Source: Patellaria atrata CBS 101060 (lineage: Eukaryota). From it: a stretch of 64,000 nucleotides of DNA. The stretch covers positions 186,001 through 250,000 of the forward strand of contig MU006099.1 of the NCBI GenBank assembly GCA_010093705.1. The letters are read 5' to 3'. Positions 14,813 through 62,129 of this stretch are shown here, piece after piece (position 1 is the stretch's first letter; every line of letters starts with the position of its first letter). Both the position numbers and the translations under genes were made by a program. The notes beneath the pieces were generated by a model. The model was not told where the DNA came from, searched no databases, and saw only the letters and a list, made by a program, of their open reading frames with translations.

Positions 14813-16549
14813 ATGTCGAAGAGTAAGAGGGTCAAATCGCTTGCGGAACAGATTGCCGAGCTTGAGGATCCTGCACCGAGGGGTTAGTTTAATTCTCCTT
14901 CGGACTTTAGGGTTGATACTAATGTGTTGCAGATTTTGACCCAGAAGAAGACGATGTAGGAAGTGAAAGCGATGCGCCCTTGGAGCTAGATGATGAGGGA
15001 TTTGATGGGAGAGAACACTATGTAGATGTTGGGTAAGTTACTGACTCTCAATCAAGTGGACATTGCTGATATAGCGTTCCATTGTAGGAAGAGCAAACTT
15101 CAAAAGCGAGATGCCCTTGCCCTAGGTCCACAATACGAGGGTTCGAGAATAAATCGAGACGCTATAGAGGATGAAGATGACGATCCATTCTCGCGAGGCT
15201 TTGGAGAGGAAGATAGTGAGGAAGAGGGTGATCTAATCAATAGGGATGCATATGAGGGTAATGAAGATGAAGAAAAGAGCGCATTCGATGATGAGGGCCA
15301 GTGGCATAGCGAAGAGGATGATGAAGACATGAATGATGGATTCGATTCAGAAGGGATGGAGGATGAAGGTTCGCAGACTGAGTCTGATGCTTCCGAGCCC
15401 TCAGATATACCAGATCAGAATGGTATCGACAGAGACGAGCTTCGAGCTCTTCTCGCCTCCGAGCAAAAGACAGTAGCCGCATCCCTATCGCAAGCAGCAA
15501 AAACAGATGCAGACAAAGGACGAGCAGTGAAAACTCAGCGAGCTACCTTTGACTCCCTTCTCAATTCACGAATCCGTCTTCAGAAATCCCTTGTTGCTGT
15601 GAATTCGCTATCAGCACTACCTACACCTAGTTGCCTGGCAAACGACACGTCTGGTAATAACCTATCAGCTTTTGAATCAGCAGAATCGGCGGCTTTCGCT
15701 TTATGGACAACTTTGGATAATCTTCGTTGCTCCCTATATACATCACGAACAGGAGAGAAGCGCAAAAGATCTACATATACAATGTCAACGCCAACATCTT
15801 CTCTATGGAAAGCTATGGAGACGCAGGAAGCAGCAGTCAAGCCCCATCGCGATGCCGTTCTCGCAAAGTGGTCTGCGAAAGCTCGTAGCACCACAGGTTT
15901 ACCAACCCGCCGACTCAATGCAAGCGTAGTATCAGAGCAAACGATCGTAGATGTTCTCAGGAATCAACTTACAGACATAGATCGACTAGTCGCAAAGACG
16001 AAGGTTGCACGGAGCTGTGCGCCAGTACAACAGAAAGCGGCATCCGCGAAACCAGCACGATCTCATGGTAAACCTGATGGAACCAATGGTGTGGCAGATG
16101 CATCATCTACACTTAATAATACAGCAACCTTAATCAATGCGGAAGATATTTACGATGACGCAGACTTCTACACCCTCCTCCTCTCCGATCTCCTCTCCTC
16201 TCGCTCAACCACAGACGCCCCCTCCCTAACAAACCTTAGCATCTCCGGCACAACACCCTGGCAAGCTGCACGCGAAGCGAAAACAAAGAAGAACGTCGAC
16301 ACACGGGCGAGCAAAGGCCGGAAAATGAGATACACTGTCCACGAGAAGTTACAGAATTTCATGGCGCCGGAGGATCGGAGTACTTGGGGCCCAAGGGCTG
16401 CGGATGAGCTATTTAGTGGGTTGTTTGGGAAAAAGGCGGTGTTGGGTGAGGAGGTGGAGAGTGACAGTGAGAGTGAGAATGAGAATGAGAGGGAGGATGA
16501 TAGGTTGCTGCTGGCGGATGGGATCGAGGGGGTTAGGTTGTTTAGGTAG
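14813..16549 (+). CDS. BFR2: SSU processome protein Bfr2/AATF
   Basis: MSKSKRVKSLAEQIAELEDPAPR|DFDPE start with two short introns, acidic N-terminus, LLNSRIRLQK, and TRAUB motifs IYDDADFY and VDTRASKGRKMRYTVHEKLQNFMAP. Confidence 0.92.
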
Positions 16550-18250
16550 TGCGGATTTTTAATTCAAACCGAACATTTTCTCTGGAGAACATCGTGTCCG
16601 TTACAAAGTGCCCTTTCTGAGATCTATGCGTTAATTTATGGATTAGGGCAGATGGAAGATATCACACAAACTTTCTTGCGGGAAAGTTATGTTCGGACTA
16701 ATGCTTCCTAACCGAACTCGGAACAGACCATCGGATGCAGGGTATGTTCCTGAACAGGAATGGTGTGTTATAATGTAAATTCAACGTCAGAGGGATCAAC
16801 AACCTCAATAAGAACTGTCAAGTTCTGTCAGACATGTCATCTATCGCCAGGAAACCTGGACCGTAATGCTCCACAGCTTTAAATTCTATCTCGTCAATGT
16901 GTATCTTACGAGGCTAGTTTGTAACCTCAAGCTTAGGGAAGATGGTCGTCAAGGAAAGATAATTAGAATCATTATATTCCTATCTAAACCTGCTGCTCTA
17001 CTTTGCCGCCTATGTAAAGAAATTACCTGGCAACAACACCTGGAGCGGAGAGTCAAACTTTGTCACCCACTCTGGTCGTGATGGAAGGTTCATGAAGAAA
17101 AGCATCGTCATCCAAACACCTCAATGCAAGAGCCTCACACGTGCAAATTATTCTGCGAAGGATCAGGCAGTATAAATGACCTATTGACTATCTCTATAAC
17201 GCATGAAAATGGATCTGGCTGCAAAGTAAGGAGAGCAACCGCAATTGTCTAGAGGTCTATCTTCGAACCTGTGAGTTGAAACCAAAATCCAACCGGCCAA
17301 ATGTCAGAGTTACGAGGATAGTCTAGTGAAGAACGGTCCCGCCCATCCGTCTTCCCCTGGACCAATGTCGAAAGTACCTAAGTCCCGGTCGTGCGACCAA
17401 AGTTAGAGAAACAGTTTCCTAAATTAAAAGACCGTTGCAGAATCAACAGCGAGGGTACAGTCGCAAGTGCGCTTAACCCTCAAGCTATTGACCCTGCGCG
17501 GGTCAAGTCATAATCCTGAACTTGGGAAAAAATGTTAGGGTAGATACTGAGCTCGCCAACGTCGGATTCTAGATTGGTCGAGGTCAAGATTATTGAGCCT
17601 TATGCGCAGGCTACCTGTAGGTCATCAGCAGATATGTTACTTAAAAGTTAGGGAAACCTATAGGTCGTAGAGTTGTTCCGTGGTAATTTTGTGGGCGTGA
17701 TGGACAAGAGTAACGAAATTGAAGAAAACAAGGGAAGAATTGGAGGGACAGAGCAAGAATATATAGACACGCCGAGGCGATTTTCTACAACCTAGGTTAG
17801 CGAGTCTTAGTGTCGTGTGACTATTTTGGGTGTTGCCGTATATTGGTGAATAATTAAGGTGAAGCGGCCATGTAACAATCGGAAAAGAACAATTGATCGC
17901 GGCGGTTCGCGCAGGCATAAGCGAAGGTGGCTATAAAGCTGTAAACAAACATATTTGCCTTCTTACTGCAGCTCTTTTCACAGTCTCATCACCTCAACGT
18001 CCAGAATTCTCCAGCAATTCTTCTGTCTTCAGAACCCGGCACTCTGTATCAAGCTTCGTCTCCTCAACGTCCAGTAACTCGAGCAAGTCTCATCTCCCCT
18101 CAACATCCGGCTTTTCTTTTGGCGGATCTCATCTGCTTAGCACCCAACACTCTTTGGTCAAATTTTCTTTCCTCCGCGTCCAGCAATCTTTTTGCAATCT
18201 CGTTTTTGTGATTATAAAACTTCTGGTACCAAACTTGTATCTCCCACACC

Positions 18251-44668: not shown

Positions 44669-45401
44669 CTAACTACCCCATTGGTCAAAGGCCCCATCCC
44701 TCTTAACCTCCTCCCACTTCCCTATCTTCGCTTCTTCCTCTCCAAAGTCCCGTAAATATCCATCTTCCTTATACCTCTCGTATGCCTCCCTCCCCAAACT
44801 CCTTTTCGCGACCTCAATGTCGGTTTTAATGTCATCTATCAGACTCTCCTTGGAAACATAGTCGTATTCAGGTCTTATATACCCAAGTATCACTAAGTGG
44901 ATATCCGCACCATAGAAGTCTGCAGCGAACTCGTGGATTATGTGCACTTCCACGGACCGTACGGTATTTTTGTAGAAGGGGTTCCAGCCTATGGACATTA
45001 CCATTGGGTAGATCTGCGGTTCAACGGAAGAGGTTGTAGTTGTCTCATAGGAGATGTCGGAAGCGAGTGGGGGAGAGGTAGAAGGAGGAAGCAGGAGAGC
45101 CGCCCAGCCGTAGTATATCCCGCTTTCGAGGTCGTCATGGCCACCGATGCTGAGGCCGGAAAGGGGAATGTTGGCGGTGGGGATGCCGAGCTACATTAGG
45201 AGATATACAATCAGCTTCAATACTTCAACGGAATTTGCCGTCTCATGGAGGTCAGATTTGATGTCTAGTATAGAAGCATACCTCTTTTGACCCTCGACCA
45301 AATCCCTTTATCACCTGCCCCCCGAACCGAACTGGATATGGCGGCGACGGGCCCGCGTCTGGCCCTACAATGGGCTCGCGGGGGCCTGATGGTGGTGGCA
45401 T
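44669..45401 (-). CDS. FMN1: riboflavin kinase
   Basis: Exon 1 [14 protein letters not shown]...[20 protein letters not shown], then [34 protein letters not shown]. Confidence 0.92.
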
Positions 45402-52641: not shown

Positions 52642-52773
52642 TTACATGACAGTGCAGGGAATTATGCAGCACGAGCAGTCGTCTCCGCACCAGCAGGGTA
52701 TTGGTTTCGGCGCCGCTGTAGAGACGGGCTTTGTGATGGATGAGGTTGTCGAAGAGGAAGAAGATTGAGGCAT
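52642..52773 (-). CDS. 43-aa Cys-rich CaaX peptide, copy 1: MPQSSSSSTTSSITKPVSTAAPKPIPCWCGDDCSCCIIPCTVM
   Basis: Translated by hand. A paralog at 59596-59733 shares the C-terminal 11 aa with synonymous codon differences. Confidence 0.85.
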   Translation of the reverse strand: MPQSSSSSTTSSITKPVSTAAPKPIPCWCGDDCSCCIIPCTVM

Positions 52774-53856
52774 TGCGAACGCTTGTGCTAACGAAGCTCT
52801 CGAAGGATGTGGTAAAGGGTGTCTGGAGAGGTTAAGACGGTCGTCAGAGCCGAGACGATATTCTCTTCCGTGTTGAGAGTTTAGGGGTAAGGTCTAGGAT
52901 AATTGATAAGCAACAACTATTAGGTAGAGTCAAGGTGCGCTTTACATTCGCTGGAAAATTTCCAACACTTGTTAGGAGTAAGTATATCGCGGAGAGTGAG
53001 CTTGAGTGATGAAGGGGTGGAGTGAGGTGGTAGTTCTATTAAAGGTAAGTGTGGCGTTTCCTGTTCTGCGCTGCCACACTAAGAAAGTTCCAGGTTCGGT
53101 TGGAGGTTGACGTCATGCGTCGCCAAACCATTTTAACCTCCTCCTGGACCGTACAAGTCAGCTTCAATTGTTCAATCCCAACCCATTCCTAATCTCATTA
53201 TTACGCATCAATCTTCATCAAAAATATAGCTTGTATCTCCATGCATTAGTTGAGTATCAGTTGAAAGTGTGAGTTCTCTTCAATTACTCCGTAATATCTC
53301 TACATATACCACGGTTTTGCTCCATCACGAAGTTGAAACCCAGTGGAAGACCAATCATATTAGCTATTCAAAAACTCTCAAGGCGAAATTCATCGAAAAG
53401 AAATAAATGTGTTATCGGGAAGAAAATCAAAATGGATAATCATGCATATCATTACAACCCTTAATCCAGCTAAAAGAATACCCTCAATTATTCGTTATCA
53501 AATCTAGGAAACCTTCAAGATCACTAAGTAATTTATGGCGGCCCTTTCAGATTCACGCGCGTCTAACTCCTGATTCTCATCATCATCATCATACTTATCC
53601 TCTAGGTCTTTCGCCTCGCAGTGTAGATCCTTTCTCTTCAGACCATTGACGCTCGTAGGGAGACTCTGGTAAATACATAGTCCGCCTTGCTCGTATGCTT
53701 CTGTGAGCTTCTTGAAAAGTCTCTTTGGCTATTTGTACATTCTGAGAGATGTCTTCGACCATCCCTAGGTTCCCTCCAAGAAGCAGGTCGTAAATCTCTG
53801 TCATGACAGCCACGACAGCATTTCTGAAAGTATTGTCGCGCCAGCCCTCAACCATT

Positions 53857-53956
53857 NNNNNNNNNNNNNNNNNNNNNNNNNNNNNNNNNNNNNNNNNNNN
53901 NNNNNNNNNNNNNNNNNNNNNNNNNNNNNNNNNNNNNNNNNNNNNNNNNNNNNNNN
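53857..53956. other. assembly gap (100 N)
   Basis: Run of N. Confidence 1.
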
Positions 53957-54956: not shown

Positions 54957-55802
54957 CTACAATTTAATCCTACCACACATCACAACGTCCTCTCCAAACG
55001 GCTGCCACTTGACCTCCCCCAATTTCACAGCAGACATAGCATTCCCATCCTCCCCAAACCTCCTTGGAGGGGACACAACCACACCGCCCTCACCCAACCA
55101 CGTCGGGGCAATCGTAACAATAACCGAATCAACGAGGCCCTGATTCCCCACCTTCAAAAGCGAATTAATCACCTTCCCACCTCCCTCAACCATAACACTC
55201 CTAATGCCCTCCCTCCCCAACACCCTCAACACCTCCCCCCACTCAAGCCCCCGCTCCCCCATCCCCACCGTGATTAACTTCCCCCCACACCCCTCAAGCA
55301 CTCTCCTGCGGCCTTCATCCAGCTCCGCCGTGCCCGTGACGACATAAGGAGCACGGCCGCGCCCCTCCCTGGCCAGCACAAATACCTTGATCTCCTCGCT
55401 GAACGCCCACCGGCCATTGGGATCCAGAATCACGGGTCGCGGCTGTCCTTCCAGCCCTTCCCCGCCGTACCCTCCCACGCCCTCGATCCGGCAGTTGAGA
55501 GAGGGATCGTCGGCGATGGCGGTCCCGACACCGACGAGGATCGCATCGTGCCGCGAACGGAGGTAGTGCGTCATTGCTTTTGATGCGGGACCGGAGAGGG
55601 CGGTAGGGAGGCCGGGGGAGAGCGAGAGCTGGGAGTCCAGGGACGCGGCGAAGGTTAGGGTAATGTGGGGCTTGGTTGGGTTTGAGCTTAAGGGAATGTT
55701 TCTGGTTGGAGGGAGGTAATGTTCGAGGAATTCGCGGGAGGAGGGGGGGAAGTGGAGGGTATCCCTCGTTTTAGACAAAGAATAATTTTCAGGGTGAACC
55801 AT
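54957..55802 (-). CDS. RIB7: 2,5-diamino-6-ribosylamino-4(3H)-pyrimidinone 5'-phosphate reductase (RibD C-terminal domain)
   Basis: PHITLTFAASLDSQL, SKAMTHYLRSRHDAILVGVGTAIADDPSLNCR, QPRPVILD, SVMVEGGGKVI, TIAPTWLG. Confidence 0.92.
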   Translation of the reverse strand: MVHPENYSLSKTRDTLHFPPSSREFLEHYLPPTRNIPLSSNPTKPHITLTFAASLDSQLSLSPGLPTALSGPASKAMTHYLRSRHDAILVGVGTAIADDPSLNCRIEGVGGYGGEGLEGQPRPVILDPNGRWAFSEEIKVFVLAREGRGRAPYVVTGTAELDEGRRRVLEGCGGKLITVGMGERGLEWGEVLRVLGREGIRSVMVEGGGKVINSLLKVGNQGLVDSVIVTIAPTWLGEGGVVVSPPRRFGEDGNAMSAVKLGEVKWQPFGEDVVMCGRIKL

Positions 55803-56166: not shown

Positions 56167-58359
56167 TCACTGAAAGCATGCTTCAATCTCACGCTTCGCA
56201 ATCCGTACTCCTTCCGAGAAATTCACCCTGCGGTCCCTACACCTTTTGACCTCTCTCAAGCATATCTCTAAACCTGCTCTCTCCCTTTCCGCGATACATC
56301 TTATCATCCCCAAATTCTCTCCCGAAAGAGGTAACGTGCCATCGGGTTCAGCAGCAAGAGAGTCATGGAGCCCAGTAAACGCACAAGCCATCCCGAGCAG
56401 CAAATCACAGTTCCTCGCGGGACTCATGGAGAGGTTTAGCATGTCTAGCGCAAATCGACCATCGGGTCCATCACTGATGACATCCCGGAGTCCTTGTGGA
56501 ATCGGCTTCCCGGCATCTCGCATCATGTCGATCCCGATCTCGATAAGGCCTGTGCAGCGTGTGCGTTGCAGTTCATCCATCCCAGCTACTCCGTCGGTTT
56601 CTTTCCGGAAGCCGTATTGGGCCCGAAGAATTGCGACTATAGCACAGGCCATGGTTGTGCAAGTCTTGAATGGGACCGAGACGAAGCCCTCTAAGAGGGA
56701 GATGTGGGCGAACCATATGGGGAGAAATTTATCCAGATTAACCGGTTGCCTTGTCAGAAATCTAGGTAGAGTCTGAGTTGTGATCATAGTACTATCTGGA
56801 GTGTTCTCATAATCCTCAGAGATTCGCTGGGAAGAGATTACTGGATAGTGTACTCGGGTATCAAGATTGCAGAACTCATCTCTTGAACATGGATCTTTTC
56901 CTCCTATAAAGTTCCAGTATGTCGCTGGTTCCACCGCAGATTGCTTACACGCATCAATCCAGTGCTCCAGCACTAACAGTTCATCCTCAGTAAACGCACC
57001 AAACATCTTACCGTTCCATTTCAGCTCCTTGACCAAGCGGCTCTTAGAGCTGTCTTCCATGTACACCCATGGTTTTGAGCTACTTAGAACTCTCAGAAAC
57101 CTATCAGCTTCGGCGTCTGAGGATAACGTTTCCGGATTCAGCCACTCATGGAGCAGTTTACCTCCAAATCTTACTTTGGACCCGCAGTGGAGTTTGTCGG
57201 AGACGGTTGATTTAGCTCTGAAGATTCTCTTCAGTTCCGTTGAGTATATGTTCTGTGAAGGAGGTATAATATCTTCTTGCTTTTCGATGAACATCGCGGA
57301 AAGAGAATAGCCTACTTGGACGCGCCTCCATGCGCTTTGAGCAGCTTGATCTCCTTCTAACTTTGACACATGTTGTAAATAGTCCAGAACGATCCTTGTA
57401 GCCATGGCTGTATGACCACTGTCGGAATTATCAATAGAGATGTGCAACAGAAAATATGAAGCGTCTATATTCATCTCTCTTAGTTCTTTGGCTGCTAATA
57501 AGGTATCCCATGTCAAACATTCGAAATGCATATTGAAGCCGAGAATCTCAGGCAAGAAGTCGTGCGGAAACAGAGATATGAGGAGCTGGGCTATGGCCGA
57601 TTTCCAGATACCTATATCATTGAGTCCTAGAGTTGGAGATACGAATTCCCTTGAATCGGCGTCTGGAATATGAGCATCGATACTATGCATGAGTTTCCGA
57701 TAAACTTCTGCGTGGTTTTTAGACAGATCACCATCTCCTAGCTCTTCTGAAAGAACTTGCCAGACATTTTTCGTTATGGATCGAAGTACGAAAGGGGTGC
57801 TTGCTCGATGGATATGGCCTAACCAGGCTCCATCTACGTACTTAGATGGTGCTCTTTGAATCAACCAAGTTTTTGCTTCTTCTGTAGTGGTTAATAACTC
57901 CCTCGGACCACCTTTTTCACGGCGTTTGATATATTTTTCATATCTTTGCCTTATCCTGTTGTTTTCTTTTTGAATAAACTGTTTGACTGATTCTGGATCA
58001 TAATGTGACATTTCTAATAATCCTCCGTCTTTCAATTTTCCCTTTTGAATCCCTTCAGCAAAGAGAGATATTAGTTCTGCTCTTGCATTCGGTATCACAG
58101 AAGGATAAAACTCAAGGTTATGTAACTTGTAGTACATCAATCTATAGTGGTCCAATTTATTGTCGTCGGTCGTAGCTTGAGTACTCTGGGGGCTCGACTT
58201 AATCCCTCTGTCAGACTTTGATGGCTTGACGTCTCTCTTATGCTGAATATCCTGAAATATCTCTCGTCGTGGTAAATATTTGTATAAAGATTGGGGTCTA
58301 CGGCAAAAATACAGCAACGAACTGAGAGCAGTGAGTACGAAGACAATGTTGAATGTCAT
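56167..58359 (-). CDS. heme-oxygenase-like diiron (iron-containing redox enzyme family) protein with N-terminal hydrophobic anchor
   Basis: 730 aa intronless ORF. VDGAWL, SEELGDG...NHAEVY, EILGFNMHFE and YFLLHISIDNSDSGH give an E/H/E/H/D/H ligand pattern. N-terminus MTFNIVFVLTALSSLLYFCRR. Confidence 0.8.
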   Translation of the reverse strand: MTFNIVFVLTALSSLLYFCRRPQSLYKYLPRREIFQDIQHKRDVKPSKSDRGIKSSPQSTQATTDDNKLDHYRLMYYKLHNLEFYPSVIPNARAELISLFAEGIQKGKLKDGGLLEMSHYDPESVKQFIQKENNRIRQRYEKYIKRREKGGPRELLTTTEEAKTWLIQRAPSKYVDGAWLGHIHRASTPFVLRSITKNVWQVLSEELGDGDLSKNHAEVYRKLMHSIDAHIPDADSREFVSPTLGLNDIGIWKSAIAQLLISLFPHDFLPEILGFNMHFECLTWDTLLAAKELREMNIDASYFLLHISIDNSDSGHTAMATRIVLDYLQHVSKLEGDQAAQSAWRRVQVGYSLSAMFIEKQEDIIPPSQNIYSTELKRIFRAKSTVSDKLHCGSKVRFGGKLLHEWLNPETLSSDAEADRFLRVLSSSKPWVYMEDSSKSRLVKELKWNGKMFGAFTEDELLVLEHWIDACKQSAVEPATYWNFIGGKDPCSRDEFCNLDTRVHYPVISSQRISEDYENTPDSTMITTQTLPRFLTRQPVNLDKFLPIWFAHISLLEGFVSVPFKTCTTMACAIVAILRAQYGFRKETDGVAGMDELQRTRCTGLIEIGIDMMRDAGKPIPQGLRDVISDGPDGRFALDMLNLSMSPARNCDLLLGMACAFTGLHDSLAAEPDGTLPLSGENLGMIRCIAERERAGLEICLREVKRCRDRRVNFSEGVRIAKREIEACFQ

Positions 58360-59595: not shown

Positions 59596-59733
59596 TCACA
59601 TCACTGTGCAAGGGATGATGCAGCACGAGCACTCGGAATCATCGCCGCAGGGGCAGGTGCAGCAACCCAGTGTCTTAGGTTTAACTGCGGAGGTGATGCT
59701 GGATGTCGCGGAGGAGGTGGTGATTTCTGGCAT
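59596..59733 (-). CDS. 45-aa Cys-rich CaaX peptide, copy 2: MPEITTSSATSSITSAVKPKTLGCCTCPCGDDSECSCCIIPCTVM
   Basis: Translated by hand. Good start context (tcaaaATG), tandem TGA TGA stop, probable 5'-UTR intron, paralog of 52642-52773. Confidence 0.87.
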   Translation of the reverse strand: MPEITTSSATSSITSAVKPKTLGCCTCPCGDDSECSCCIIPCTVM

Positions 59734-60438
59734 TTTGAAGGATTGGGGAACGTATTCTTGACTGCGAGAATCTGTTAGGTAGACTTCTTGAAGAAAGTTA
59801 GGTTGTGGATTAAGTCAGGGGAAGAATCAAAGTGTAAATAGACGTACCGTGTTGTAGCGTGAGTGAGCGAATAAACAGTCTGAATATAAGGATACGCTTT
59901 GCAAATTCGGTGTTCTTCGGGAAAGAGCAGTCACTTAAGGTAGGAGAGAAATATATACAGTTCGAAATTCTCGAGGATTCAGGTGTGTATCAGGTTTTAC
60001 GAATTCCCCAAATGTTGACGTAGCTTGGCCATTACCATTAAGGTACATAGGTATGCATTTCACGAGCCACACAGCACTAAAAATAGAATCAATCACTAGG
60101 CTATAATAGGCAATCGGGATTGACACAGCCACAAGTGCCCGAAGTCGGCTTCATTCGTATTCGATTTCGGACCGCTCGGGAATAAGTAGCGAATGCGAAA
60201 AGGGATGAAACATTATTCGGTTTGTGGTCCAAGGACACTATTGATGAATTCAATTTCTTCCTCAGATACTAATATAATCACACTAAGAAAACTGGATTTA
60301 GATCAAAGAACAGCTGACAATACTCATTATTCGCATCTGGTATAGACCACCCATCCATTCTACCTTCCCGCTTCATCTCTTTGTCTACCAGATGCATAAT
60401 AGTCAACAAGTTTGGCATTTCATTAAAATGGTGAAAAT

Positions 60439-62129
60439 CTAGACATCTCTCCTGGATTAAAAAATTAGCGAAGTTGAATCTGATACTCTTTTCGGCAACT
60501 ACGAACCATGTCATTCCCCCTCTCTCAATATAGGGCGTCTTGACTGCATTCTGATCTCCAAATGGATCATCTGGATCCGGTTCCTGAATATCATCTTCGG
60601 ATTCGCTTTCTTCAGCCCTTTGTTTCCCTGATATATCAGCTGAAGACATGGGGATACTTGTAGGCCTTGGAGGTTTGATGGGAGCAGTTTCGTTCAGGTT
60701 TAGTCCTGCAAGTGCTGCTTCGTTGCTACTATCCTTCACTGGAGACGATGAAAGGCCACGATATGCTTCAGTGTCACTATCACTGTCGTCGTCGATGCTC
60801 TTATCCATAATCTCAAACGCCATGAGCGCCTTAACAAGTTCATCGTTCGCAGTAAGTAAACTTCCAATCCATTGTTCAGATTCAATAAGCTGGATGTAGC
60901 GTAAAATTTGGCGACGAAGACGCTTGCATGTCTCAAATCGGGTTAGCACCTCCTGGTTTTCACTCACTCTTTGTTCCTCTCTATTTATCAGTTGCAATCC
61001 ATTTAACAAGTTGGTACTAGCGACTGATGCTGATGCGATGGTCTCAAGTAGCTGTTGCTTTTCCTTCTCCAAATTAAAGGATTTGTTCTTACTTTTCTTA
61101 TCTTTAGAAGACTTGAAGATAGATGAATTTGGTAACGGAGCAGCAGCAAGGGCAACAGGAGCAGCGGATGACGACGCCGTAGCATAGATGTTCGATGGTT
61201 TAGAGGTCTTTCGTGCATGTCCGCTTGTTATGGTAGTGGGTGAGCGGGGCGAGCCTGGTGAAGTTTCTTCAGCAGCTTCAGCTTCAGTCTCTCTGATAAC
61301 TTTCGATTGCGCCGGACGGGGTCTTCTTGTCTGGGGAAGTTGCTTATAAAGCGTAGCAATCCTGTCCAGTCCCGGTTTATTCTTGTACGCGTTGGCCCAT
61401 TGTCGAAAAAGTACGTTGCACTTTTGCCTCACTTCCGAATCTACCATGTCATCCTTGGCAAGGATTCGAAGGCGCTCAAGGAGGGGCTCATCCGCAAAAG
61501 CTCGTTGGAAGCGACTTCCAGCATTTTGGATCAAACCATCCAGAATGACTAATGCACGAAGTTGTTTATGGACACTTCCATATTTCCTTAAGTGGACGTC
61601 AACTTCATGCTTCTGATTTGAAAGACAAGGGACCTACAGTTTCTTACGAATTGCTCTTGCGGCTTCGGTTGGACCTGACTCTTGGATCCGAATGACCTCT
61701 ATGAGATCGACCAGACCGCCAAGGTCGTTCTCTTCATACTGTTCACTGGTAAGGCGGTCTATCTGGACCGTGATGGCGGAATAGGGTCTCTTCTGTTCGA
61801 TCAAGTCTTGTTTCAGTATAACGAAAATGACAGGTGTACAAGCACAGCGTTCGGATCCTTGCTCTCTGTAGAGGTTGCGATATGCACATTCATAAGAAGA
61901 TTCTTGGGACTATAGTGTGGAATAAAAGGAAAATATGGTAGGATCCGGATACCGAGTATCGAGTGGGACACGGTTGTGGTCACAGTGGTACTCGCATATG
62001 GATTACAAAAGCCTTACTGGAGAGTAAGAATTGAAATATATATTAGACAACGTGGATATCCATGGTTAGACCGTGATGAGAAGATATTGCAGGAATATAC
62101 AAGAATAGACATACCGAAGCTCCAAACAT
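60439..62129 (-). CDS. LSB5: VHS/GAT-domain endocytic adaptor Lsb5-like
   Basis: Short first exon MFGAS|, then KRPYSAITVQIDRLTSEQYEENDL...GPTEAARAIRKKL|KYGSVHKQLRAL. GAT-like IGSLLTANDELVKAL, DDPFGD. Last exon W|RDV* ends at 60439. Confidence 0.85.

What the first reader, a model, noticed from the sequence alone, without database searches (positions are those of the whole stretch)
52642..52773. Peptide copy 1: codon-level evidence that the paralogs are real and constrained
Seen: the shared C-terminus is tgc tcg tgc tgc ata att ccc tgc act gtc atg in copy 1 and tgc tcg tgc tgc atc atc cct tgc aca gtg atg in copy 2. All five differences are synonymous third-position changes. The leader (TTSSIT vs ATSSIT) and core (CWCGDD vs CCTCPCGDDSE) have diverged, and I see no similarity in the flanks. 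Inference: an old duplication under purifying selection, possibly giving two product variants.
Basis: seen in the sequence. Interest (0 to 1): 0.7.

Follow-up and report, generated by a model that had tools for sequence, protein, structure and literature searches.

The report
Paired cysteine-rich lipid-tail peptide genes
Two tiny neighbouring fungal genes encode related 43- and 45-residue peptides with a cysteine cluster and a lipid-attachment signal; they belong to a widespread, strongly conserved family that is either the long-sought second mating pheromone of these fungi or a new kind of membrane-anchored cysteine peptide.

Summary
Copy 1 (52642-52773, minus strand, 43 aa) and copy 2 (59596-59733, minus, 45 aa) share a C-terminus with 5 DNA differences in 33 bases, all synonymous.

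Both are real genes. They belong to a family found in 66 of 74 fetched metagenome loci and in annotated proteins of Dothideomycetes, Eurotiomycetes and a Pezizomycete. Members share:
- a Met-Pro start
- a Ser/Thr-rich leader
- a Lys/Pro stretch
- an almost invariant core, PCWCGDDCxCC[IV][IL]PC
- a farnesylation box, mostly CTVM

Synonymous sites in the core are saturated while the peptide is unchanged (pN/pS 0.09). Introns at three different places splice back to the same peptide. Linked pairs of two types recur in other genomes, so the duplication is old.

The function is not settled:
- a-factor-class farnesylated pheromone precursors: about 0.45
- lipid-anchored intracellular cysteine-cluster (metal-binding or S-acylated) micropeptides: about 0.35

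I found no RNA data and no whole genome. I could not see the sequences of the published Leotiomycete "putative a-factor" or of A. fumigatus PpgB.

This scan noted similar cysteine-rich CaaX peptides before, in two other genomes.

The parts
52642..52773 (-). Copy 1 (type 1): complete 43-codon gene plus stop codon (52642-52644)
   Evidence: ORF list and sequence. Best relatives are P0003 (Cercospora beticola, 40 aa) and 49 type-1 core hits in the loci and the window.
52699..52773 (-). Copy 1 leader, codons 1-25: Met-Pro start, Ser/Thr-rich run, then TKPVSTAAPKPI (Lys/Pro stretch)
   Evidence: Alignment A5. All 54 distinct leaders that are complete (of 56 distinct leaders; 2 are cut by a contig end) start Met-Pro. 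45 of the 56 match MP-x(0-2)-[ST][ST]. Median S+T share is 0.36. The last 12 leader residues hold a median of 2 K/R and 0 D/E.
52645..52698 (-). Copy 1 core, codons 26-43: PCWCGDDCSCCIIPCTVM. Five cysteines sit ahead of the CaaX cysteine.
   Evidence: Cys, Gly, Asp-Asp and Pro are invariant in 33 distinct DNA versions, with free third-position change.
52645..52656 (-). Copy 1 CaaX box, CTVM (predicted farnesylation, aaX removal and carboxyl-methylation)
   Evidence: Read from the sequence. Across the 33 core versions the last residue is Met in 31 and Gln in 2. The modification itself is inferred from general CaaX knowledge.
59596..59733 (-). Copy 2 (type 2): complete 45-codon gene plus stop codon (59596-59598)
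   Evidence: Relatives are P0004 (Phyllosticta citricarpa), P0001, L065 and L070.
59599..59667 (-). Copy 2 core, codons 23-45: GCCTCPCGDDSECSCCIIPCTVM. Seven cysteines sit ahead of the CaaX cysteine. CaaX box at 59599-59610.
60278..61909 (-). Neighbouring VHS/GAT-domain gene (Tom1/GGA-like), directly upstream of copy 2 on the same strand. It is a conserved neighbour of the family, not part of the peptide gene.
   Evidence: Pfam VHS at E 2e-7 and GAT at E 2e-5, the GAT hit below its cut-off. Its orthologue lies next to the peptide gene in 21 of the 66 family loci, in two orientations.
60206..60212 (-). One TGTTTCA (reverse of TGAAACA, the Ste12-type pheromone-response element) 479 bases upstream of the copy 2 start. 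Weak evidence. Copy 1 has none within 800 bases.

Best explanation
Both ORFs are real, separately transcribed micro-genes. They are an anciently duplicated, still linked pair from a Pezizomycotina-wide family of 40-60-residue precursors. The layout is a Met-Pro start, a Ser/Thr-rich leader, a Lys/Pro stretch, a near-invariant cysteine cluster and a C-terminal CaaX box ending in Met.

Likely mechanism (inferred, not shown): the precursor is made in the cytosol. Farnesyltransferase alkylates the CaaX cysteine. Rce1 or Ste24 removes -TVM, and Ste14 methylates the new C-terminus. The leader is then trimmed, and the farnesylated cysteine-rich C-terminal peptide is exported by a Ste6-type ABC pump. 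It would then act as the a-factor-class lipopeptide signal read by the Ste3-type receptor.

On this reading the family is the counterpart, outside the Sordariomycetes, of mfa-1/ppg2. It would be related to the 'putative a-factor' published for Leotiomycetes. The two types would give two variant peptides.

That the genes are real and constrained is about 0.95 certain. That the product is prenylated is about 0.85. The pheromone role itself is about 0.45.
For: Real gene and family:
- A profile search of 1.84 billion representatives gave 9 hits at E<=1e-3, all carrying the same core.
- Word-indexed searches gave 7 proteins at E<=1 and 25 at E<=10.
- 66 of 74 metagenome loci encode the peptide.
- Core pS is 0.87 against pN 0.08.
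- GT..AG introns at three different positions restore the same peptide.

Pheromone-type features:
- A CaaX box ending in Met in both copies, and in 31 of 33 core versions.
- Length of 40-62 aa.
- A Ser/Thr-rich leader starting Met-Pro-x-Ser-Thr. As I recall, not from a call, yeast and Sordariomycete a-factor precursors also start M-(x)-P-S-T.
- The endings seen here (CTVM, CVVM, CSIM, CSVM) are among those listed for the Leotiomycete putative a-factor, which is 45-64 aa with a Ser/Thr-rich N-terminus (PMC10569646, section 21).
- All named fungal hits fall in Dothideomycetes, Eurotiomycetes and Pezizomycetes. None is a Sordariomycete, the class with proven a-factor genes.
- TGAAACA is enriched upstream: 13 sites in 9 of 33 upstream regions, against 4.0 (Markov) or 4.5 (rest of the same DNA), Poisson P about 9e-4. 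Ten of the 13 lie at -450 to -250.
Against: - No proven a-type pheromone that I know of carries a cysteine cluster (recalled).
- The number of free cysteines varies from 4 to 7 and is often odd. That does not fit a fixed disulfide frame in a secreted peptide.
- The 17-residue core is nearly unchanged from a Pezizomycete to Dothideomycetes, while the neighbouring VHS/GAT protein falls to 46% identity. That is tighter than I would expect of a mate-recognition peptide.
- Two anciently separate types are kept side by side.
- A basic stretch plus upstream cysteines plus a CaaX box is the usual make-up of an intracellular membrane anchor.
- Wilson et al. report that their candidate is not expressed by mating type and is highest in sclerotia. 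They write that several lines of evidence argue against a mating role (PMC10569646, sections 23 and 27).
- One hit, P0049 from an amoebozoan record, carries the same core behind a ubiquitin-like domain.
- The TGAAACA signal shrinks once related loci are merged, it was one of 19 motifs tried, and copy 1 has no site.
- Pfam gives nothing for 24 of 24 members at E<=10.
- Earlier notes of this scan name other a-factor candidates in Dothideomycetes; I did not check them.
Confidence: 0.45

Rival explanations
1. An intracellular, lipid-anchored cysteine-cluster micropeptide. The CaaX cysteine is farnesylated. The peptide then stays on the cytosolic face of membranes, helped by the Lys-rich stretch. 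The 4-7 remaining thiols either bind metal (Cu(I) or Zn(II), a prenylated mini-metallothionein) or are S-acylated (a cysteine-string-like anchor). The two types would differ in metal or membrane preference.
For: - CxC and CC motifs make up 6 of the last 18 residues in copy 1 and 8 of the last 23 in copy 2.
- The cysteine count is variable and often odd across members, as in thiolate clusters and S-acylation sites.
- Conserved acidic residues (GDD, GDEE) lie inside the cluster.
- The leader is net basic next to the cluster: median 2 K/R and 0 D/E in its last 12 residues.
- Conservation across classes is extreme.
- The CxCGxxCxC spacing resembles fungal copper metallothionein, and CxCC-aaX resembles paralemmin-type anchors (both recalled, not tested).
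- UniRef labels two members 'Metallothionein'. This is an automatic name, not evidence.
- The Leotiomycete candidate is highly expressed regardless of mating type.
- P0049 carries the same core as the tail of a ubiquitin-like domain.
- The 5' leaders are C/A-rich and G-poor, which in my experience goes with strongly expressed fungal genes.
Against: - No metallothionein or other Pfam family matches any of 24 members, and there is no PDB match.
- A conserved Trp sits in the type-1 core, whereas metallothioneins usually lack aromatic residues (recalled).
- The copper (Ace1, Mac1), zinc (Zap1) and MRE motifs tried are not enriched upstream. MRE is depleted, z = -3.5.
- This reading gives no reason for the conserved Met-Pro-x-Ser-Thr start.
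- If the role were housekeeping, the lack of named Sordariomycete hits would be odd.
Confidence: 0.35
2. Another kind of secreted or modified peptide, such as a RiPP-like natural product, an antimicrobial lipopeptide or a quorum signal. The CaaX box would serve only as a handle for export.
For: A short precursor with a variable leader and a conserved core is the general RiPP layout. Two core variants sit side by side.
Against: - There is no signal peptide, no Kex2-type dibasic repeats and no tailoring-enzyme gene as a conserved neighbour. The recurrent neighbours are a VHS/GAT gene or an MFS plus flavokinase pair.
- Near-identity of the core across fungal classes is unlike the natural-product cores I know.
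Confidence: 0.05
3. Not independent genes: chance ORFs, or alternative last exons of the upstream VHS/GAT gene that give it a CaaX tail.
For: Copy 2 lies 545 bases downstream of the VHS/GAT ORF on the same strand. No RNA data were available.
Against: - In 9 loci the peptide gene and the VHS/GAT gene are convergent, and many loci lack that neighbour.
- All 54 complete leaders begin with Met-Pro.
- Independent annotations-55-aa proteins in Cercospora, Myriangium, Pyronema and many Aspergillus species.
- Saturated synonymous change with an unchanged peptide rules out chance.
Confidence: 0.02

Closest known systems
Leotiomycete 'putative a-factor pheromone' family (Botrytis cinerea BCIN_13g03330; Wilson et al. 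2023, PMC10569646; I read sections 9 and 21-23 and passages of the discussion)
   Same: Both are small, mostly unannotated genes of 45-64 aa with a Ser/Thr-rich N-terminus. CTVM is the commonest ending, with CVVM, CSIM and CSVM as variants. The C-terminus is more conserved than the N-terminus. The function is unproven.
   Different: I could not see their sequences: Table 1 is empty in the held text and the sequence supplements are not held. Their GY motif (87 of 111 species) is absent from both window copies. No Leotiomycete protein appeared in my three searches, so if the two are related they are distant. The paper's main text uses 'cysteine' only once, in defining the CAAX box, and so does not discuss a cysteine cluster. 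I saw no description of paired paralogue types in the parts I read.
Proven a-factor-class precursors: S. cerevisiae MFA1/MFA2, Sordariomycete mfa-1/ppg2, and A. fumigatus PpgB (Krappmann et al. 2025, Curr Biol; seen only as a citation)
   Same: A short precursor, a farnesylation box ending in Met or Ala, and a Ser/Thr-rich N-terminal extension starting M-(x)-P-S-T (recalled for the known ones; measured here).
   Different: The known mature peptides have no cysteine cluster (recalled). The window peptides are about twice as long as Sordariomycete precursors (recalled). There is no Pfam match. Whether PpgB is the Aspergillus member of this family (AFUA_6G10000 type) is unknown to me.
Fungal copper metallothioneins
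   Same: Very short, rich in CxC and CC, with Gly, Ser and Asp between the cysteines. The spacing is CxCGxxCxC (recalled for Neurospora-type metallothionein).
   Different: The family has a CaaX box, a long Ser/Thr leader and a conserved Trp. No Pfam metallothionein match. No copper or zinc promoter motifs are enriched.
Prenylated plus S-acylated membrane anchors (Ras/Rho hypervariable regions, paralemmin) and plant heavy-metal-associated isoprenylated proteins (HIPPs)
   Same: A basic stretch, cysteines a few residues upstream, and a CaaX box. HIPPs are a precedent for pairing metal binding with prenylation (recalled).
   Different: Here the anchor-like segment is almost the whole protein. 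There is no GTPase, paralemmin or HMA domain.
Membrane-anchored ubiquitin-fold proteins (MUB/UBL3)
   Same: P0049 (record named Planoprotostelium fungivorum) is a ubiquitin-like domain followed by ...LNGG and then CWCGDDCQCCILPCSIL, a CaaX end.
   Different: The window genes have no ubiquitin-like domain. The Pfam ubiquitin hit of P0049 is below the cut-off (22.3 against 25.4 bits). A fused gene model or fungal DNA in that assembly is not excluded.

Membership tests
a-factor-class lipopeptide pheromone precursors | C-terminal CaaX box suited to farnesyltransferase | tested here: met
   CTVM directly before the stop in both copies. The last residue is Met in 31 and Gln in 2 of 33 core versions.
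a-factor-class lipopeptide pheromone precursors | Short precursor (<100 aa) with an N-terminal extension that is removed | tested here: inconclusive
   The length is met: 43 and 45 aa, family 38-63 aa. Removal of the leader cannot be tested. Conservation starts at the Lys/Pro stretch before the core.
a-factor-class lipopeptide pheromone precursors | Sequence match to a curated a-factor model | tested here: not met
   No Pfam family matched any of 24 members at E<=10. The yeast model is narrow, so this weighs little.
a-factor-class lipopeptide pheromone precursors | Mating-type- or pheromone-pathway-dependent expression | tested here: inconclusive
   No RNA run was listed. TGAAACA is enriched upstream in the family but present in only 9 of 33 regions and absent from copy 1.
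a-factor-class lipopeptide pheromone precursors | Secreted farnesylated peptide that activates the Ste3-type receptor; export by a Ste6-type pump | not testable with these tools
   Needs mass spectrometry and a receptor assay.
Leotiomycete putative a-factor (Wilson 2023) | 45-64 aa, Ser/Thr-rich N-terminus, CTVM-type ending | tested here: met
   Copy 2 is 45 aa; copy 1 is 43 aa, just under the range. Both are Ser/Thr-rich and end in CTVM.
Leotiomycete putative a-factor (Wilson 2023) | Gly-Tyr motif near the C-terminus (87 of 111 species) | tested here: not met
   Neither copy has GY. P0002 has GDY at the matching place.
Leotiomycete putative a-factor (Wilson 2023) | Detectable homology to BCIN_13g03330 | not testable with these tools
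   The sequences are not in the held text or supplements. No Leotiomycete protein was among 9, 7 and 25 hits.
Metallothioneins | High cysteine content in CxC/CC motifs in a very short protein | tested here: met
   6 Cys in the last 18 residues of copy 1; 8 in the last 23 of copy 2.
Metallothioneins | Match to a metallothionein family model; no aromatic residues | tested here: not met
   No Pfam match for 24 of 24 members. Trp is conserved in 32 of 33 type-1 cores. The 'no aromatics' criterion is recalled.
Metallothioneins | Metal binding and metal-induced expression | not testable with these tools
   The Ace1, Mac1, Zap1 and MRE motifs are not enriched upstream. This is only a weak proxy.
Membrane-anchored ubiquitin-fold proteins (MUB/UBL3) | Ubiquitin-fold domain ahead of the CaaX tail | tested here: not met
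   No such domain in either window gene. It occurs only in P0049.

The most novel reading that the evidence does not exclude
The family is not a pheromone. It would be a previously unrecognised class of fungal micropeptide: a free-standing, farnesylated cysteine-cluster module (a prenylated mini-metallothionein or cysteine-string anchor). It would have been kept in two ancient paralogue types since before the Pezizomycete/Dothideomycete/Eurotiomycete split. In at least one organism it would be delivered as the tail of a ubiquitin-like domain. The published 'putative a-factor' label for its relatives would then be a misreading.
Probability: 0.35. Interest if true: 0.75.

Novelty: new variant of a known kind. 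Interest (0 to 1): 0.55.

Why it matters
The lipopeptide (a-factor-type) pheromone gene has long been missing from most classes of filamentous ascomycetes. That includes the Dothideomycetes, which hold many crop pathogens. My searches found no paper that describes such a gene in that class.

If this family is that gene, mating-type biology in these fungi becomes directly testable. The pheromone would also be chemically unusual: cysteine-rich and in two variants.

If it is not, fungi have an abundant, deeply conserved, prenylated cysteine-cluster micropeptide that standard annotation mostly misses or mis-splices (for example AFUA_6G10000). The published pheromone assignment for its relatives would then need revisiting.

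Either way, the pair gives a compact, well-defined target for knock-out, mass spectrometry and receptor or metal-binding assays.

Tried and rejected
- A single-peptide word search found nothing.
- The whole genome is not held, so I could make no genome-wide copy count and no search for STE3, STE6 or MAT.
- No RNA holder was listed. The two runs that hold the stretch behave as DNA, with contigs running through genes and spacers alike. Expression is therefore untested.
- AlphaFold2 on a 24-sequence alignment gave no fold: mean pLDDT 53.6, pTM 0.14. I made no fold search.
- There was no PDB sequence match at E<=10 and no Pfam match.
- The protein atlas gave only unnamed ascomycete clusters at 0.78-0.84 and no named cluster.
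- An unbiased 7-mer scan of 33 upstream regions, followed up on one candidate block, found no shared promoter block.
- The Ace1, Mac1, Zap1, Yap1, STRE, MRE, Mcm1 and other motifs were not enriched.
- Krappmann et al. 2025 is not held, and the citing papers give no sequence.
- The Wilson 2023 sequence files are not held as text.
- Locus tags of family members occur in no held paper.
- The first attempt at a metagenome scan failed because the 9-sequence alignment had no conserved 7-10-column stretch. A 4-sequence type-1 alignment worked. That scan was therefore aimed at type 1, so type 2 is under-sampled.
- 8 of the 74 loci (L062-L064, L068, L071-L074) are chance matches inside long unrelated ORFs. 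I left them out of all family counts.
- I made no complex prediction, because no binding claim is made.

Full report
**What is there**

The window is fungal: spliced genes, and Pfam hits such as ERT1/acuK, BUD22 and AATF. On the minus strand, 52642-52773 is a 43-codon ORF, MPQSSSSSTTSSITKPVSTAAPKPIPCWCGDDCSCCIIPCTVM. On the same strand, 59596-59733 is a 45-codon ORF, MPEITTSSATSSITSAVKPKTLGCCTCPCGDDSECSCCIIPCTVM.

A degenerate pattern for the shared C-terminus hits only these two places, and hit none in 100 shuffles. The last 11 codons differ at five bases, all synonymous third positions: 5 synonymous and 0 non-synonymous differences over 6.7 and 26.3 sites. The first 14 codons show 9 synonymous and 8 non-synonymous differences. 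The flanks align at only 39% and 42%.

This is a CaaX box whose last residue favours farnesyltransferase (established knowledge of CaaX processing).

**The genes are real and belong to a large family**

Pfam, the PDB and a single-sequence word search gave nothing. A two-sequence profile run against 1.84 billion representative proteins gave 9 hits at E<=1e-3. All 9 carry the same C-terminal module. Most are over-extended ORF calls in which the true peptide starts at an internal Met-Pro.

Alignment-based word searches added 7 and then 25 proteins. A pattern scan of metagenome contigs returned 74 loci. Of these, 66 encode the peptide and 8 are chance matches inside long unrelated ORFs.

The named members come from these groups (classes checked for four species):
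- Dothideomycetes: Cercospora beticola CB0940_01784, Myriangium duriaei, Pseudocercospora musae, Phyllosticta citricarpa
- Pezizomycetes: Pyronema omphalodes
- Eurotiomycetes: about 25 Aspergillus species, 5 Penicillium species, Trichophyton and Thermoascus
- One record named for the amoebozoan Planoprotostelium fungivorum

All are labelled hypothetical, apart from two automatic 'Metallothionein' names in UniRef.

**Anatomy of the family**
- A Met-Pro start, in all 54 distinct leaders that are complete (of 56; 2 are cut by a contig end). 45 of the 56 read MP-x(0-2)-[ST][ST].
- A Ser/Thr-rich leader of variable length, 20-61 residues from the start to the core, with a median S+T share of 0.36.
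- A Lys/Pro stretch, such as SSI-x-K-P-[IV]-K or P-x-V-K-[LP]-P, that is net basic.
- The core.
- The CaaX box.

Type 1 has the core PCWCGDDC[QS]CC[IV][IL]PC. Type 2, and the Eurotiomycete form PCFGCDCGDEECDCCIC, carry an extra N-terminal cysteine and an inserted Glu before the third block.

**Selection**

Among 49 type-1 hits there are 33 distinct DNA versions of the 17-codon core. Every Cys, Gly, Asp and Pro codon varies freely at its third base while the residue stays the same. Mean pairwise pS is 0.87 and pN is 0.08. Because the hits were found by a peptide pattern, the fixed positions are partly ascertained. The positions left free in the pattern show only conservative changes (Q/S/E, I/V, I/L, T/S/V/C, V/I/L, M/Q).

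In several lineages the frame is interrupted by canonical GT..AG introns, at three different places:
- after CGDDCQ in L059
- inside the CG|DD codons in L066
- after CCI in L050

In each case splicing restores the same peptide. Several database models read through such introns and lose the CaaX end, among them AFUA_6G10000 of A. fumigatus.

**The duplication is old and the pair stays linked**

Each window copy has closer relatives elsewhere than its partner in the window. Other contigs also carry a type-1 gene next to a second, different type:
- L027 and L031, about 0.9 kb apart
- L052, 1.3 kb apart
- L004, L025 and L026
- L037

In L052 the order is VHS/GAT gene, then a type-2-like copy, then a type-1 copy. 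This matches the window, where three other ORFs have come to lie between the copies.

The VHS/GAT gene is next to the peptide gene in 21 of the 66 family loci. It lies either upstream on the same strand or convergent. Its protein has diverged to 46-75% identity while the core stays at 14 or more of 17 residues. In L003, L020 and L021 the neighbours are instead orthologues of the window's MFS and flavokinase genes at 39.9-45.2 kb.

The window holds no MAT, receptor or pump gene that I could recognise.

**What it does**

That the CaaX cysteine is farnesylated, the last three residues removed and the new end methylated is a firm inference from the motif. What happens after that is open.

*Reading A: a-factor-class pheromone precursor (about 0.45).* The evidence for it:
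- The size, the Met-ending CaaX box and the Ser/Thr-rich leader with the M-P-x-S-T start. I recall the same start from yeast and Sordariomycete a-factor precursors (recalled, not tested).
- A match in length, ending types and N-terminal make-up to the Leotiomycete 'putative a-factor' (PMC10569646).
- No named hit in Sordariomycetes, which have their own proven a-factor gene.
- An excess of the Ste12-type element TGAAACA upstream: 13 sites in 9 of 33 regions against 4.0-4.5 expected, with 10 of them at -450 to -250.

That last signal is weak. 19 motifs were tried, some loci are close relatives, copy 1 has no site, and copy 2 has one.

*Reading B: an intracellular lipid-anchored cysteine-cluster peptide, metal-binding or S-acylated (about 0.35).* The evidence for it:
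- The cluster itself.
- The variable and often odd number of free thiols (4-7).
- The acidic residues inside the cluster and the basic stretch beside it.
- Conservation from Pyronema to Dothideomycetes.
- Two types kept side by side.
- The ubiquitin-like fusion in P0049.
- Wilson et al.'s own data: their candidate is not expressed by mating type, peaks in sclerotia, and in their words may well not act in mating.

Against B: there is no metallothionein model match, a Trp is conserved, no metal-responsive promoter motifs are enriched, and it offers no explanation for the conserved start.

A structure prediction was uninformative, with pLDDT 53.6.

**Comparison with what is known, and novelty**

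The closest published thing is the Leotiomycete putative a-factor family. I could not test homology, because its sequences are only in files that are not held and no Leotiomycete protein came up in my searches. Its GY motif is absent from both window copies.

The 2025 report of an A. fumigatus a-factor-like pheromone (PpgB) is not held. Whether PpgB is the Aspergillus member of this family is the single most decisive open point.

Two earlier follow-ups of this scan, on other genomes, linked similar cysteine-rich CaaX peptides to the Wilson family. Other notes name different a-factor candidates in Dothideomycetes. I treated these as leads and could verify neither.

My searches found no paper that describes this family in Dothideomycetes, its cysteine cluster, or its two paralogue types. 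I rate it a new variant of a known kind (CaaX lipopeptide precursor genes). It is real and well supported as a gene family, with an unresolved and interesting function.

Noticed in passing
window 16689-16778 (+): A 29-codon ORF ending ...EQEWCVIM (a canonical CaaX box) lies about 140 bases downstream of the AATF/Che1-like ORF (15026-16549). It is one of 20 short CaaX-ending ORFs in the window, so it may well be chance.
   Followed up: no
window 53857-53956: A run of 100 N. Contigs of both DNA runs stop at its edges, with loose ends made of A runs, so a long poly(A)/low-complexity tract probably lies there.
   Followed up: partly
P0049 (record named Planoprotostelium fungivorum, 85 aa): A ubiquitin-like domain (Pfam ubiquitin E 1e-4, below the cut-off) ends in LNGG and is followed directly by CWCGDDCQCCILPCSIL, 16 of 17 residues identical to the core in L006. 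It could be a true fusion, a fused gene model or fungal DNA in that assembly.
   Followed up: partly
P0051 (A. fumigatus AFUA_6G10000), P0050, P0052, P0053, P0013, P0042: These database gene models of family members run on past an intron after CGDE or CGDDCQ and so lose the CaaX end. They look like mis-annotations.
   Followed up: partly
L052:7818-8060; L046-L048: The second copy in L052 ends CTVMRK, so its CaaX box is no longer terminal and the gene may be decaying. L046-L048 end CTIQ instead of CTVM.
   Followed up: no
window 44672-45190 (-), 54957-55802 (-), 56167-58359 (-): Two riboflavin-pathway-type genes (flavokinase and a RibD_C reductase) and a 730-codon ORF with a Haem_oxygenas_2 (iron-containing redox enzyme) domain lie near or between the two peptide genes.
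   Followed up: no
upstream 60 bases of 33 family genes, including window 52774-52833 and 59734-59793: The 5' leaders are strikingly C/A-rich and G-poor, which in my experience goes with strongly expressed fungal genes.
   Followed up: no
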